Below the pieces are notes generated by a model. The model searched no databases. It saw only the letters and a list, made by a program, of their open reading frames with translations, and was not told the DNA's origin. The translations under genes were made by a program, and so were the position numbers. This document shows positions 42,977 through 59,111 of a stretch of 64,000 bases of DNA, piece by piece. Numbering within the stretch: position 1 is the stretch's first letter; each line of letters starts with the position of its first letter. Source of the DNA: Hormiphora californensis (Eukaryota; Animalia; Ctenophora); the NCBI GenBank assembly GCA_020137815.1, contig CM035355.1:4402001-4466000 (forward strand), written 5' to 3'.

Positions 42977-45344
42977 TACTCACAAAAACGGAAACAGCAA
43001 GCAATAGGAAGAGGCAAGAGAAAAAGGACAAAGAAGAACATTCTTTCTCAAGTTCTTACTGATTTAATTTAATTGTGGACTAGAGACTAAAGATTAAAAT
43101 ATTTACAGGAGATCCATATTCTCTCGAACAATATGGACGATATATGAAGGTCGATTCAGAGACAAGATGTGTGGTTACCTCGCCCCTTACTTGCACAGCT
43201 ATGGATAACACCTTAGTTTCATTCGCCAAGAAATATCATCCCGCCCCGACCACGTTGAATGGCTGTCGTTTACATGCCCAATACATACAGTGTCGAATTT
43301 ATGAATACTCCATACTGGACACTAACCCAATTGCCATATTTACATAGAATATAGAGGTATAGAGGTACACGGAATATATAGAGGTACCTGGTACATGGAA
43401 TAAAGAGGTACATCGCCCTTTAAATATCATTTTGATCAGACGGTCCTCTCCGTTATAAGAGACTCAATCTAGGTAGAAGGCGCCGGACAATTTCAGTGGG
43501 ATAGGAAGGAAAAGATGACGAAACAAGCGCAAAAGTTTTACCGGGAAAATGTTGGTCCTCATTTTTACATCGCTTAGCTCTAGCACAGTACAATATAACA
43601 CTCGCATTTTGTATCGATATTTCATCTTTTTATCGTTATCTTTTTTGGTATCATTCATTATTTTCACGTATATTCTTTTTGTTGTCAATACGTTTATATC
43701 TTACTTTCCAGTTAATACCACAGGCAAGGGGAGAACTCGAGTACCTGCGACACAGGTGCAGGATTGGAAGAAAACTGTTAACATTCTTTTATTTACTCCA
43801 GGAAACGTGTGATTTTGTGTCTGAAGGTGCCCTGTCTCTTGCGAGAGCACCCTCCAGTACACTAAGGGAGGTACTCTAGTTTTCTCCAAGAATATTGGGG
43901 ATGAAATTGCACCAATTGAGCACCATGGAGACAATCAGCACACCGGACACGAAAACCTACTTCTTGAAATGGGCTGACTTCAAACTAATCCAAGCTGAAA
44001 AACAAATAATGTACGGAACGGGGGAGAACTATAAACAGTCGACCAATATATCAGGACACAGAGATGGCACAGGACTGATGATGGTTCACGGAACCGAATT
44101 AGAAATTAATGTCGACCTTATTAAAATTAACAGCGGAAAGAAGAGCAACGATGGGGGAGGCAAGAAAAGGCAAAGGAAAAAGGCATCGGGCAGACCACAC
44201 CCTACAACAGACGTGTGACACCCTGGATTATAAATGATAAAATAACTTTGTTGTTTGTATTTAAGGGAAGACAAAGGATAATCATAAAATAATCTATCCC
44301 GTATCCGATTCCCAAGATTGTTGATATAATGGGATCTTCGCCCAGGGTATTAATTCGAATTGGGAGAAAGGAAGAGTGGTTGGATTCATCCCCAAGTGAT
44401 ATGGTTTCTGCAACGATGAAACGTGCGATTTTGTGCCTGAAAGTCCCTGATATTGGTGAAGGAACCGACCTGTCACAGGTGTAATTCTACATGGAAAAAC
44501 CCAGCGCCAAATAAGAGTTAAAGGAAAGGACGCGAAAATACCGGTAAGTGGTGGAGGAGAAAGGTATCGGGCAGACCACCGCCAGCTATGTTGTGTCAGC
44601 GACTATGCTGGCAAATGATTATGGAGGAGGATGGACCCTGGGTGTAGGTGGTTCTGGACACCCCCTTAGGTATGCAGGAGGTCCGCATGGGAGGATTTGG
44701 AGAGAGGTTGGTAGTGCCTCACCAGAAGCACCCCGGCCCGCTGACCTTCTGCTTGGTGAACTCTGTAATAGCCCTGGTTGTGCCCCTGGAATTATGCTGG
44801 CAAATGATAACGGAGGGAGCTGGACCTTGGGAGTAGGGGGATAAAATAACAAACCTATAACATAATTGATAAATTAAATAAAGAGCTGATATAAGATAAT
44901 AACAATGCTAAAACGCCGGGACTACTACTTTTAAACAAAGTAGACGGAATGTCCAATTAGGGTTTACAGGCAGGTTAGCATTCCGAATTGAGGAATGGTC
45001 AATAGGACTAGGGGAGCTGGAGATGTAGATTCGGGGGTGGTAGATCTCTGGCTGTCACAAAACTCCTTATTCTTCAGGACAGGGGAAATAGAAGTAGGCC
45101 TCCGCACTAACTTTCTTTTACGAATATGTCTCCTAACCCATGATCTATCCAATTCCCAAGCTTACATACACTCCCTCCTTGAGAGGGAGCGGTAAAATAA
45201 CAATGCTATAAAATATAATATAATCACTGATAAAAACTGGTACACCAGGACTACCCCATTTAATTAAAAGTAGACTGAATGTCTCATGGAGCCCTGCAGT
45301 GTAATTGGAGAAGGTAAGTGACACCTAAACCATCAACCGACAAG

Positions 45345-45620
45345 ACAAATCGATTCTGCACTCTCCCCACAACGGCCTGAGAGGAGAGACTACAGCAACA
45401 TTTGGCAAACGGATGGACTGAACTAAGCGAGGACCCCTCCAACTCATTCCAGCTACAAGCCAACACTCTCCTAAAGACTTGCCTAAAGGAAGCAGATATA
45501 GGGGACGAATACCTAGTCACACGTCTGTCAACCAGATATTTCACCGCCCCAATCGTGTACCCACTCGCAAAGGACCACAAACCTGACTTCCCAAACACAA
45601 AGATGCGTGTGGTTCAGCCA
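45345..45620 (+). pseudogene. Penelope-like RT N-terminal fragment (second, deleted copy at 48945-49175)
   Basis: WTELSEDPSNSFQLQANTLL..APIVYPLAKDHKPDFPNTKMRVV matches YxxLxxDPxxxF...PxxYxLPKxHK..PxRxxV. Confidence 0.75.
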
Positions 45621-46212
45621 CAAAGCTATAAAATATAATATTATAATTGTAATAAAAACTGATACACCGGAACTACCCCAATTAAATGTAGACTGAATGT
45701 CTCATGGAGCCCTGCAGTGTAATTGGATGCCTACTACTACATAGGCCTATACAGATGCTACCGACAATCCCCACCGACACTTTCTAGGGAGGAAGCAGTT
45801 ATATCAGCCGTTTCTTTTTCCACCAGCCTTGGAATTTGTTGTAGCTGCAACAATTCGTGCAAAAGCAGTTGCGGCTGCAGAAAAAGTAAGATGACGTGCC
45901 AAAGAATGTTGCAATAACAAAGCCGCCGCCCAAAAGAGACTCCTAGAACTGTAATCAAGGGCTCAATAAGACTAGCGAAAGGGTTTATGGATAAGCATCG
46001 GGTTTCTTGAGTCAAACTAGATATAGACACAGCAGCAACACTGAAAAAACAGAGGAAGTTGTCTAAGGGACACGTATTCTAAATACCACTTAAATTACTC
46101 TGTTTGCTTTATTTGATCGTTTGATCAGCGGTAAAATAACAAAACCCTCCCCTATAACATAATTGATATATTAATTAAAAGGATGATTCATTCCAGAGAC
46201 CAATAACGAATA

Positions 46213-46385
46213 AGAACCGCTCACACTACCGTGGCCCTCATCAAGACTCTAGACAAGCTGAGAGAAAATTCCTGGTTTTCATCACCTGGTGTCCGGGACA
46301 CCACGGGATAGCAGGAAACGTGCGGACCAGTTGGCAAAAGCTGCTGCAGATGCTCCCCCTCCCACAGAACATTTCATCCCTGTAG
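46213..46385 (+). pseudogene. Non-LTR retrotransposon RNase H C-terminal fragment
   Basis: VFITWCPGHHGIAGN/ADQLAKAAA = WxPGHxGIxGNExADxLAK, with a frameshift. Confidence 0.8.
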
Positions 46386-57096: not shown

Positions 57097-57365
57097 CCTC
57101 TTTTTCTCACTCTTCTCTCGCCCTCCCTGTTTCTCCCCTTTTTCACCCTCTCTTTATCCCTCTCTCTCTCCCTCTCTCTCTTTTATCTCTTCCTCATTCT
57201 CTCACTCTAATCTATACCTTTCCCGCGCTCCCTTTTCCCACAATTTGCCTTCTCTCTCTCTTTCTCTCTCTCTCTCTCTCTCTCTCTCTCTCTCTCTCTC
57301 TCTCTCTTTTATCTCTCTTTCCCTTTCTCGCTTTGCTCTCTCGTTTCTCTCTCTTTACTTTCTCG
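57097..57365. repeat. CT-rich low complexity with (CT)n core 57249-57306
   Basis: Direct reading. Continues the CT-rich tract 56540-56620 that the Kolobok MITE splits. Confidence 0.9.
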
Positions 57366-57782
57366 ATATGACCCCTTCCCATTTATACAAATTACTTACT
57401 ATAACTTAACCATCCCTCTGTATATTTTCAAAGTATCTTCGCAATGAACCAATCAAGAATGAACAGGTGGCAGGCGGCGGCAGTGGAAGGAAAGGGGGCG
57501 GAGGCGGCGGTAGGAGGAGCGGCGGCGGAGGCAAAGGAGAACATTAGAAGATGGTGTTCGGTCACGACTACAGCACCTCCTCTCAGTACGCGCTCAAAGA
57601 GGCAGAGGAAGAGAAGCATGTGCAAAGGAGAACATTAGAAGACGGAGTACGGTCCCGCCTACAGCACCTCCAAGGAGGTAGAGGTAGAGGCAGCCAGATT
57701 TATTATCAAGAGAAGCATGTGCAAAGGATGACCATGATCTATCCAATTCCCAAGCTTACATACACTCTCCCTGTAAAATATA

Positions 57783-58062
57783 CAGGGTGGTTCAGAAACA
57801 TGGAGCCACTTGGAGATAAAAGTTGGAAAAATACAATCCTCTCTCTATTGTACGGATCAAAATTTCAACGTGTTACCCTGTCAGTTGACAGGCTGATAAT
57901 CTTTATGAAAGAGTGACTCTCTGTCGATCCCAATCCTCAGGGGACACCTTTTCTAGCCAATAGACCGTGAAAATACGTTTTCAATTACACTGTACATTGG
58001 AGAGCGAACTGTATTGACACATTAGTTATCTCAAAGTGGCTCCATGTTTCTGAACCACCCTG
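57783..58062. mobile_element. Tc1/mariner-type MITE (280 bp), copy 2
   Basis: TA TSD; same TIR as 15992-16271. Confidence 0.93.
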
Positions 58063-59111
58063 TAATATAATCGTGATAAAACTGGTGTAATTGGAGGTCT
58101 ATACAGATGCCACCCACAATCAAAGAGCCCCACCGCAGGAAACTTCTTGTATTGTTCATACAAGGGTCGGTGTAACAGCAGAAGAAGCTCTATAGGCAGG
58201 GATCAGCGGTAAAATAACAAAACCCTGCCCTATATTATAATTTATAAATAAAATAAAAGGCTGATAGAAGATAATAACAATGCTAAAACACCGGGACTAC
58301 TACTTTTAAACAAAGTAGACTGAATGTCTCATGGAGCCCTGATATAATAAGACACAACACTGCTAACTGATGTAATCGGAGAAGGCAACTGACACCTGAA
58401 CCCAGCTCAGTGTAAGCGGTAAATCATAATCTCATTATCTTGGGTAATTGAAATCCACTAGCTAACCAATCAGCGATCCCTGTGAGTTGTCACGTGACAT
58501 ACACGTATATCTATGTGTGTGGAGGGGAGGGGCTGAAGATCCCTGATAATAATAAAAAGGTGTGTCTCGGTACTAAATATTTAATGGAAATGATACCTGG
58601 GGATGAAGAAGTGGGTTGAACATGAGATACTAGCCAGTTCTAATTTGGGTAACCGGTAAGCCCATCCTTATTTTCTAGATATTTGTTTACTGAGTGGAAT
58701 CAGGATCTGTGGGAGGAGGGACTGCAATAGGCGAGTCGGCCCGGAGGATGGTCGGCTATGGAAGGTTCGGTTATGCATTTGGTGCTTCGAGGACTTAGAA
58801 GGATACGAAATGGACATTAGAATGGTGAGGGCGGTAGCAGACGTGGAGTTGGAGGGTGAGAACGGGTGCGATGAATACCGTCGCATATTATCGAGAGCGC
58901 ATGGTGGACACGATAGCATCACGGCTAGGGCACATTTAGCTTCTAGCTACCTGTATAGGGCGGAATTGGGAGCAAATAAATTAATGGAGGAGTTGGAGTT
59001 GGGACAACCGGAAACCCGGCAAATGCTATTATTAGCCATCAGGTTTTCTTATACGAGAACTAGTGTGTTGTGGGCGGGTAGGTTATTAGCACGGGAAAGG
59101 GCGGGGTACGC

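What the first reader, a model, noticed from the sequence alone, without database searches (positions are those of the whole stretch)
44842..58700. CRISPR-like repeat-spacer architecture: one scaffold repeated at least 10 times with different cargo between copies
Seen: a ~100-170-bp AT-rich scaffold (gcggtaaaataacaa..ataattgataaa..gctgatagaagataataacaatgctaaaacaccgggactac..gtagactgaatgtctcatggagccc) recurs in the same orientation every 0.3-2 kb. Between copies lie unrelated 150-400-bp pieces, some clearly TE-derived (Penelope RT, RNase H, gag). The scaffold is not found elsewhere in the window and has no TIR, LTR or poly-A. Inference: an array that expands while acquiring foreign spacers. It is not a prokaryotic CRISPR: there are no cas genes and the repeats are long and diverged.
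Basis: partly seen in the sequence, partly recalled or inferred. Interest (0 to 1): 0.85.

Follow-up and report, generated by a model that had tools for sequence, protein, structure and literature searches.

The report
Comb-jelly patchwork of captured transposon scraps
In what is likely a comb jelly genome, an AT-rich unit of about 130 bases recurs some 15 times between short internal pieces of unrelated transposons that mostly face one way, a patchwork that grew partly by local block duplication, likely took up its pieces by DNA repair, and likely serves as a source of antisense small RNAs rather than working as a CRISPR-type array.

Summary
The scaffold is real: 10 long and several partial copies at 44.8-58.3 kb, all on the + strand, none elsewhere in the window, roughly low-copy in public runs, and present in a related species with neighbours in another order. 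Cargo includes internal pieces of a Penelope-like RT, an RNase H and a zinc knuckle; donors run on beyond the first two. It is not CRISPR-like in mechanics: copies are ragged (58-100% alike), cargo joins at many scaffold positions, 61% of the insertion-free array is duplicated in scaffold-plus-cargo blocks, and 5.3 of 13.9 kb is later foldback insertions. The style runs through the whole window: 99 direct against 3 inverted duplicate pairs, other AT-rich repeated modules, and coding-like pieces biased to the + strand (28 against 11 tiles; shuffles balanced). One 230-bp internal gene fragment 3 kb beyond the array is present or absent between haplotypes, with 2- and 3-nt microhomologies. Best reading (0.45): a one-strand, flamenco-like small-RNA source built from short repair-captured fragments, with the scaffold as its most duplicated module. 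No small-RNA data or whole genome were available, so function is inferred only.

The parts
44837..44958 (+). scaffold copy, A form
   Evidence: E 9e-31 (seed)
44963..45137 (.). cargo, single in the window, unidentified
   Evidence: bridged to the scaffold in X1 and X5 contigs
45138..45188 (+). second repeated module upstream of B-form copies (also 47356, 51969, 57732, 55880)
45187..45300 (+). scaffold copy, B form; doubled TTAA at about 45260 is a likely excision footprint
45325..45620 (+). internal fragment of a Penelope-like reverse transcriptase; duplicated with a deletion at 48920-49175
   Evidence: donor contigs run on
45617..45718 (+). scaffold copy, B' form
   Evidence: seed
45780..45914 (+). 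cysteine-rich (CXC-like, label from recall) coding fragment; duplicated near 49380-49491
   Evidence: translation; no Pfam hit
46126..46187 (+). scaffold 5' part, cut off by the RNase H cargo
   Evidence: E 2e-4
46189..46433 (+). internal RNase H fragment of a retroelement
   Evidence: matches positions 2406-2633 of a 3101-nt X1 contig
46557..46598 (+). scaffold middle part
   Evidence: E 0.008
46730..46990 (+). gag-like zinc knuckle fragment; first 164 bp duplicated at 49549-49717, where it switches to 26 nt of the Penelope-like donor
47095..47203 (+). scaffold copy, A form (2% from the 44837 copy)
47403..48888 (+). scaffold copy, B form, split by a 1372-bp TTAA-flanked foldback element (47480-48851)
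49176..49274 (+). scaffold copy, B' form
   Evidence: seed
49854..49989 (+). scaffold copy, A form
   Evidence: seed
50280..50382 (+). degenerate scaffold remnant
   Evidence: E 0.63
50404..51303 (.). TA-flanked foldback element (second copy 54468-55465)
52018..53345 (+). B-like scaffold remnant split by a 1278-bp insertion (52040-53317)
53464..53599 (+). scaffold copy, A form
   Evidence: seed
53745..53853 (+). scaffold copy, A form without its 5' part
   Evidence: seed
55901..55966 (+). short scaffold copy ending at a truncated foldback-element end
   Evidence: E 1e-4
56624..57092 (.). TTAA-flanked foldback element
57772..58092 (+). B-like scaffold remnant split by a 280-bp TA-flanked MITE (57783-58062)
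   Evidence: seen in sequence; not an HMM hit
58204..58343 (+). last scaffold copy, A form
   Evidence: seed
61733..61962 (+). outside the array: 230-bp internal gene fragment (likely intron end plus part of an exon), skipped in one X5 contig
61444..62955 (+). outside the array: three copies of a different AT-rich module (61444, 62295, 62870) with different neighbours

Best explanation
The array is the most expanded part of a window-wide patchwork of short, mostly co-oriented mobile-element fragments that likely works as a one-strand (flamenco-like) source of antisense piRNAs or endo-siRNAs, would be transcribed from the - strand, and likely takes up its pieces by microhomology-guided DNA repair. 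Shown: the repeated scaffold, internal donor fragments, + strand bias, local direct block duplications, later foldback insertions, different module orders between samples and species. Inferred: (1) breaks in this region are repaired by copying 25-400 bp from a dispersed element, joined at 1-3 nt microhomologies; (2) unequal exchange or template switching then copies scaffold and cargo together over a few kb; (3) selection keeps pieces that are antisense to a - strand transcript; (4) the AT-rich scaffold is the most often duplicated module, perhaps break-prone or a splice or processing signal, not an integration repeat.
For: Donors run on past both ends of cargo: a 772-nt and a 1926-nt X9 contig for the RT, 3101-nt (X1) and 1019-nt (X9) contigs for RNase H, a 934-nt X9 contig for 61736-61965; P0005 continues past the window's break. 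An X5 contig joins 61732 to 61963 (72 letters on the shorter side) while another X5 contig holds the piece, and the skip fits the donor's homology ends within 2 and 3 nt. Penelope left junction shares 3 nt with the host module, right junction 0-1 nt. Orientation: in 153 non-redundant tiles, 28 + against 11 - pass the coding-likeness cut (p 0.009); mean difference 0.64 against 0.03 +/- 0.10 in 40 dinucleotide shuffles. A exceeds T on + in 67 of 83 bins. Duplicates: 99 direct, 3 inverted, none over 13.4 kb apart. One-strand transposon bias is the criterion used to nominate unistrand clusters (PMC10643416, passages); piRNA and endo-siRNA clusters exist in the ctenophore Mnemiopsis (PMC6211395, passages).
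Against: No small-RNA or transcript evidence of any kind was obtained. An F-box ORF (10594-11001) and lysine-rich ORFs (22011-22600) lie on the - strand, and 11 of 39 scored tiles favour -. Pfam named almost none of 424 ORFs, so most cargo is unidentified. The microhomology case rests on four junctions picked because donors were visible; the letters between the sides of the 61732/61963 joint are 'not known'; a window-wide junction scan was inconclusive. AATAAA scarcity on - (3 against 27 at 44.8-63.5 kb) is largely explained by base skew and by repeated copies. Captured pieces are about 7-17% diverged from the donors seen, so they may no longer silence them well. The scaffold is no better conserved than cargo within duplicated blocks at this sample size (0.9-5.2% against 1.9-8.2%).
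Confidence: 0.45

Rival explanations
1. The patchwork is the inside of one or more large composite mobile elements (Helitron-like capture, or reverse-transcriptase template jumping as in Terminons) that gather fragments in their own orientation; it has no defence role.
For: Co-orientation of fragments of many classes; Helitrons capture many gene fragments and Terminons form head-to-tail arrays with captured genes (PMC6431247, passages); Penelope-like sequence is among the cargo.
Against: Array-specific contigs are at low depth in X1, X5 and X9; no helicase/Rep or other transposase hit (low sensitivity); no hammerhead in Rfam or at the scaffold by motif; no telomere-type short repeat at junctions; captures sit in the middle of the locus and are polymorphic there.
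Confidence: 0.2
2. Neutral decay beside a satellite: fragile AT-rich DNA collects repair insertions and tandem duplications with no function.
For: An 8.7-kb 33-bp satellite lies 5 kb to the left; the most duplicated bases are the most AT-rich (GC 0.355 against 0.445); no excess conservation or structure in the scaffold; MITEs accumulate freely.
Against: Neutral capture gives no reason for one-strand bias across independent donors; modules persist in a second species.
Confidence: 0.15
3. A classic transposon trap: whole elements jumped into a small-RNA cluster and were later whittled to short pieces by deletions; no special capture.
For: Flamenco holds many fragments and local duplicates and changes fast within species (PMC10495008, passages); deletions are seen here (40 bp lost from the second RT copy; joints).
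Against: The 61733-61962 piece is absent cleanly in one haplotype, with both skip ends within 3 nt of the donor's homology ends; no element ends or target duplications were seen at the four donor-known junctions.
Confidence: 0.13
4. A dedicated eukaryotic repeat-spacer system in which the scaffold is the recognition and integration site and is copied at each acquisition.
For: After removing insertions the first ten spacings are 120-559 bp; ten copies share a fairly sharp 5' motif with several upstream neighbours; the scaffold is local and shared with a second species that has other neighbours.
Against: Copies 58-100% alike with ragged ends; cargo joins at HMM positions about 53, 72-74, 85, 121-133; four tree pairs are block duplicates with their cargo; capture occurs without this scaffold; other modules behave the same way elsewhere in the window.
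Confidence: 0.07

Closest known systems
Drosophila flamenco and flam-like unistrand piRNA clusters (PMC10643416, PMC10495008; passages read)
   Same: Dense transposon fragments mostly in one orientation, local duplicates, fast turnover within and between species, no host gene seen.
   Different: Flam-like loci are 227-1085 kb and their bias comes from Gypsy LTR insertions; here pieces are 25-400 bp internal scraps of several classes, interleaved with a repeated AT-rich module. piRNA output is shown there and untested here.
Aedes core piRNA clusters with non-retroviral endogenous viral elements (bioRxiv 10.1101/2022.08.22.504762; passages read)
   Same: Foreign fragments that cannot integrate by themselves are held antisense in a cluster and are polymorphic in populations.
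   Different: Cargo there is RNA-virus cDNA; here it is transposon-like DNA, in one case with a likely intron. No repeated scaffold appeared in the passages seen.
Prokaryotic CRISPR arrays (analogy in PMC5238787, part 1 of 2 read)
   Same: Repeated unit alternating with short pieces of invaders; possible immune memory.
   Different: No fixed-length identical repeat, no fixed-length unique spacers, no fixed integration point, no cas gene; growth by block duplication.
Helitrons with captured fragments and Terminon arrays (PMC6431247; passages read)
   Same: Chains of captured fragments; Penelope-like sequence present.
   Different: No termini, Rep/helicase, hammerhead or telomeric repeat found; low depth rather than dispersed copies.

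Membership tests
CRISPR array | Near-identical repeats of fixed length | tested here: not met
   58-100% identity among 10 copies, ragged ends
CRISPR array | Unique spacers of near-fixed length | tested here: not met
   61% of 8569 insertion-free bases duplicated locally; unique pieces range from tens to several hundred bp
CRISPR array | Integration at one fixed repeat boundary | tested here: not met
   matches end at many scaffold positions; 5' motif fairly sharp in 10 copies but 3' ends vary
CRISPR array | Adjacent cas or integrase genes | tested here: not met
   no such Pfam hit among 424 window ORFs scanned; only 64 kb seen
Unistrand piRNA cluster (flamenco type) | Region made largely of transposon fragments | tested here: met
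   RT, RNase H, zinc knuckle, endonuclease fragments and many foldback elements; most cargo still unnamed
Unistrand piRNA cluster (flamenco type) | Fragments biased to one strand | tested here: met
   28 + against 11 - tiles, shuffles balanced; a composition score, not a repeat annotation
Unistrand piRNA cluster (flamenco type) | Long single-strand precursor antisense to the fragments | not testable with these tools
   no RNA run listed as a holder; no raw reads available
Unistrand piRNA cluster (flamenco type) | 24-32 nt, 5'-U biased, PIWI-bound small RNAs | not testable with these tools
   no small-RNA library available
Unistrand piRNA cluster (flamenco type) | Enrichment of Gypsy LTR elements (flam-like loci only) | tested here: inconclusive
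   two weak zinc knuckles and one RNase H of unsettled class; Penelope-like and DNA-element-like pieces also present
Helitron with captured fragments | Rep/helicase gene or recognisable termini, and dispersed copies | tested here: inconclusive
   no Rep/helicase Pfam hit; low depth; termini not searched systematically; no genome
Terminon / Penelope-like head-to-tail array | Hammerhead ribozyme motif and telomeric repeats at junctions | tested here: not met
   no hammerhead among 14 Rfam matches at E<=5 in 40-64 kb; 8 core-motif hits in the window, none forming part of the scaffold on +; no telomere-type repeat
   scaffold bins about 190-670 in X1 against 7156 for a high-copy control bin; rough, contig-based
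Satellite / tandem repeat | Head-to-tail copies with a regular period | tested here: not met
   Tandem Repeats Finder reports no scaffold-based array in 44.8-58.7 kb

The most novel reading that the evidence does not exclude
Comb jellies keep an anti-transposon memory locus that actively samples 25-400 bp internal pieces of mobile elements by templated repair, keeps them antisense, and uses locally amplified AT-rich modules as break-prone landing pads or RNA-processing signals: a direct-capture route to piRNA-cluster immunity that needs no transposition into the cluster.
Probability: 0.2. Interest if true: 0.85.

Novelty: new variant of a known kind. Interest (0 to 1): 0.55.

Why it matters
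Whether small-RNA clusters gain new targets only when whole transposons happen to jump in, or by a direct capture route, was called unknown in a 2017 commentary (PMC5238787). A locus made of short internal fragments, with at least one polymorphic insertion and donors still in the genome, makes that testable with population long reads and small-RNA sequencing, in an early-branching animal lineage. It also offers a sequence-only signature (co-oriented scraps plus local AT-rich modules) for finding such loci.

Tried and rejected
No RNA holder listed; the guessed-RNA run X22 and run X16 (organism C) laid 0 contigs, which is no evidence either way. Uncovered bins in X5 (45945-46047, 47181-47480) are not counted as absence. 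Scaffold motifs found 0 matches in metagenome contigs and viral contigs. Scaffold as structured RNA: 8 of 8 folds had z between -0.89 and +1.11; Rfam gave 14 matches, all below gathering scores and none on the scaffold; no tRNA. Scaffold as a coding fragment: the 45-aa frame in the 49854 copy had no homolog among 12 candidates (weak test). Splicing as the source of joints: none of the 11 skip-type joints table 5 or the 8 has GT..AG or CT..AC ends as listed. Acceptor-like sites on the - strand fall in most scaffold copies but follow from T-richness; kept as a lead only. Window-wide microhomology scan (68 junction clusters) was swamped by small indels and nested copies: inconclusive. PDB searches gave nothing useful for 46262-46393, P0001 and 28300-28464. 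The 58660-59211 ORF has one unnamed relative (P0003, 35%) and one likely chance hit. P0005 stayed unnamed (Atlas unreachable). The bacterial promoter scan is at chance level and not suited to this organism. Earlier findings: none in three look-ups. Literature searches that found no description of such a locus in ctenophores: (listings; open-access library only; supplements not consulted).
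Full report
Setting. The window is eukaryotic and repeat-rich, with an 8.7-kb 33-bp satellite at 30478-39155. No whole genome was held. The stretch is held by DNA runs of organism A (samples S1, S2), in small share by organism B and by marine metagenomes. The RT cargo's two homologs are an unnamed protein (P0001, 74%) and EukProt entry sb/3462413 (P0002, 69%); from recall, that id series is the gene set of the ctenophore Pleurobrachia bachei, so the host is probably a comb jelly. 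This rests on one transposon protein and on memory.

Observation. The scaffold is real and far beyond chance: 16 of 19 HMM hits lie in 44837-58343, all on +, 14 with E<0.01 (9 were seeds); the 3 outside have E 0.35-2.4. Two motifs match 7 and 10 times against shuffle means of 0.01 and 0.20. Ten copies are long, three partial, and about four more are remnants. They fall into A, B and B' forms, 58-72% alike across A/B and 84-100% within A, with ragged ends and no invariant column in an 18-row alignment. Public contigs bridge scaffold-cargo junctions with 0-4 differences in X1 and 0-7 in X5, so the order is not an assembly artefact.

What lies between copies. Six foldback or MITE-like insertions (about 5.3 kb) are late arrivals; three split scaffold copies. 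Of the remaining 8569 bases, 61% are covered by another local copy, and 197 of 200 alignments are direct (reciprocal hits counted twice). Blocks such as 45138-45891 and 47356-49491, or 51868-53598 and 57531-58338, repeat scaffold and cargo together at 1-8% divergence, and the scaffold tree pairs copies as these blocks predict. So about half the copies arose by block duplication, not one per new cargo. Named cargo: a Penelope-like RT fragment, an RNase H fragment (E 0.007) and a zinc knuckle (E 0.003-0.03). A cysteine-rich piece is labelled CXC-like from recall only. Pfam was run on 132 of 170 ORFs of 38 aa or more in 43.7-60.3 kb plus 6 others and on 286 of 296 ORFs of 48 aa or more elsewhere; it named very few.

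Copy number and donors. In one search (44400-47480) 140, 110, 44 and 0 contigs were laid from X1, X5, X9 and X22. In X1, scaffold bins sum to about 190-670 where single-copy-like contigs stand at 30-100, while a high-copy repeat at 62640-62822 reaches 7156. The tool warns that these sums are no copy number, but a tenfold or larger gap argues against an abundant dispersed scaffold. Cargo behaves differently: the RT and RNase H pieces sit inside contigs of 772-3101 nt that run on as the donor element, 11-17% diverged. Organism B holds the scaffold and several of the same modules in other orders (joints 44913>45734, 46122>45183, 46724>46044, 44945>44842), and samples S1 and S2 show joints that the window lacks (46890>44840, 46700>44840, 46995>44840). 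The locus therefore predates the split of A and B and keeps being reshuffled.

How pieces get in. The clearest case is outside the array. An X5 contig joins 61732 to 61963, another X5 contig holds the piece, and a 934-nt X9 contig matches 61736-61965 and runs on at both sides. By the loose-end letters the donor's homology spans 61731-61965, so the skip fits within 2 nt at the left and 3 nt at the right. The piece begins in a likely intron and ends inside an exon whose homolog P0005 (82%) continues. That fits repair synthesis from a DNA or unspliced template joined at microhomologies. The letters between the two sides of the joint are not known, and a precise deletion cannot be excluded. In the array, the RT's left junction shares 3 nt with the host module and its right junction 0-1 nt; at 49711 the zinc knuckle switches to the next RT codons at an imperfect 7-nt match (donor partly inferred from P0001). 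These four junctions were chosen because donors were visible. A window-wide scan was inconclusive.

The wider pattern. After masking satellites and foldback elements there are 99 direct and 3 inverted duplicate pairs in the window, none more than 13.4 kb apart, and the most duplicated bases are the most AT-rich. Six other AT-rich modules (GC 18-34%) recur two to four times with changing neighbours. Coding-like sequence favours +: 28 against 11 of 153 non-redundant tiles at the lower cut, 13 against 2 at the higher, mean difference 0.64 against 0.03 +/- 0.10 in 40 dinucleotide shuffles (the score uses generic amino-acid frequencies). Within 44.8-58.7 kb itself no tile passed the higher cut, so the array's own orientation rests on its named pieces, all +. 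In the two-strand Pfam scans, hits at E<=0.01 were 10 on + and 3 on -, many probably spurious; the strongest is an F-box on -. My targeted homology queries were all + strand picks and are not an unbiased count. A exceeds T on + in 67 of 83 bins, which fits both sense coding fragments on + and transcription of -.

Mechanism. I commit to a one-strand small-RNA source locus (0.45). One-strand transposon bias is how flam-like clusters were nominated in Drosophila (PMC10643416, passages); such clusters duplicate locally and differ among individuals (PMC10495008, passages); Aedes clusters hold non-integrating viral fragments antisense (bioRxiv 10.1101/2022.08.22.504762, passages); Mnemiopsis has piRNA and many endo-siRNA clusters (PMC6211395, passages). 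Shown here are the architecture, the donors, the strand bias and the reshuffling. Inferred are repair-type capture, - strand transcription, small-RNA output and selection. The scaffold has no significant fold, no Rfam match, no protein homolog and no clear excess conservation; it is best seen as the most duplicated AT-rich module, with break-proneness or a splice-acceptor role on - as untested leads. Rivals: a composite mobile element (0.2), neutral decay near a satellite (0.15), whole-element insertion and erosion in a classic trap (0.13), a dedicated repeat-spacer system (0.07).

Comparison and novelty. It fails the CRISPR features tested. It meets the two sequence features of a unistrand piRNA cluster, and the two RNA features could not be tested, so it is not filed as a member. 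It differs from flamenco in the very small size and mixed classes of its pieces and in the repeated modules. Nine literature searches (listings, open-access only) showed no such locus described in ctenophores. A 2017 commentary calls direct capture into piRNA clusters an open question (PMC5238787, part 1 of 2 read). Verdict: real feature, partly misread; new variant of a known kind; interest 0.55; boldest reading 0.2 likely and worth 0.85.

Noticed in passing
window 30478-39155: 33-bp G-rich satellite, about 275 copies, with 28/33 variants; it turns indel-rich from about 35.9 kb to 40 kb, which may be low-accuracy assembly.
   Followed up: no
window 11013-12410, 26503-26820, 47480-48851, 55965-55997: One TTAA-flanked foldback family with arms up to 609 nt at 98% complementarity (Kolobok-like ends, from recall); possible hairpin endo-siRNA source.
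   Followed up: partly
window 45255-45270: Doubled TTAA at the site where the duplicate copy (47479) carries the foldback element: a likely excision footprint, implying insertion, then block duplication, then excision.
   Followed up: partly
window 52040-53317: 1278-bp insertion with sub-terminal inverted repeats and (ATAC)n and (GA)n tracts; Helentron-associated element by recall only.
   Followed up: no
window 61733-61962: Polymorphic 230-bp internal gene fragment with microhomologies; used in the argument.
   Followed up: yes
window 58479-58704: 226-bp skip in an X5 contig (65 letters on the shorter side), another array polymorphism.
   Followed up: no
window 904/7202, 12427/15095, 18252/18924/19251, 19630/24603/25113/25611, 27961/28786, 61444/62295/62870: Six other AT-rich modules repeated locally in direct orientation with changing neighbours.
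   Followed up: partly
window 6174-6505: Endonuclease VII fragment (Pfam E 2e-6) followed by a likely 54-nt intron; resembles Polinton polymerase regions by recall.
   Followed up: partly
window 10594-11001 (-): F-box ORF on the - strand next to a foldback insertion; an exception to the + bias.
   Followed up: partly
window 20060-24300: Block with inverted repeats near 20126-20412, lysine-rich ORFs on - (22011-22600) and a C2H2 zinc-finger ORF on + (23262-23789); may be one intact mobile element; AT skew reverses here.
   Followed up: no
window 62636-62742: Short very high-depth repeat (7156 in X1, also high in X5 and X9); used as a control, not identified.
   Followed up: no
window 56101-56384 and 58708-58991; 46994-47086 and 51774-51866: Pairs of cargo about 30% diverged: separate captures from related donors or old duplicates.
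   Followed up: partly
window 24430-25706: Near-tandem 501-bp duplication, about 2.5 copies, 95-99% alike.
   Followed up: no
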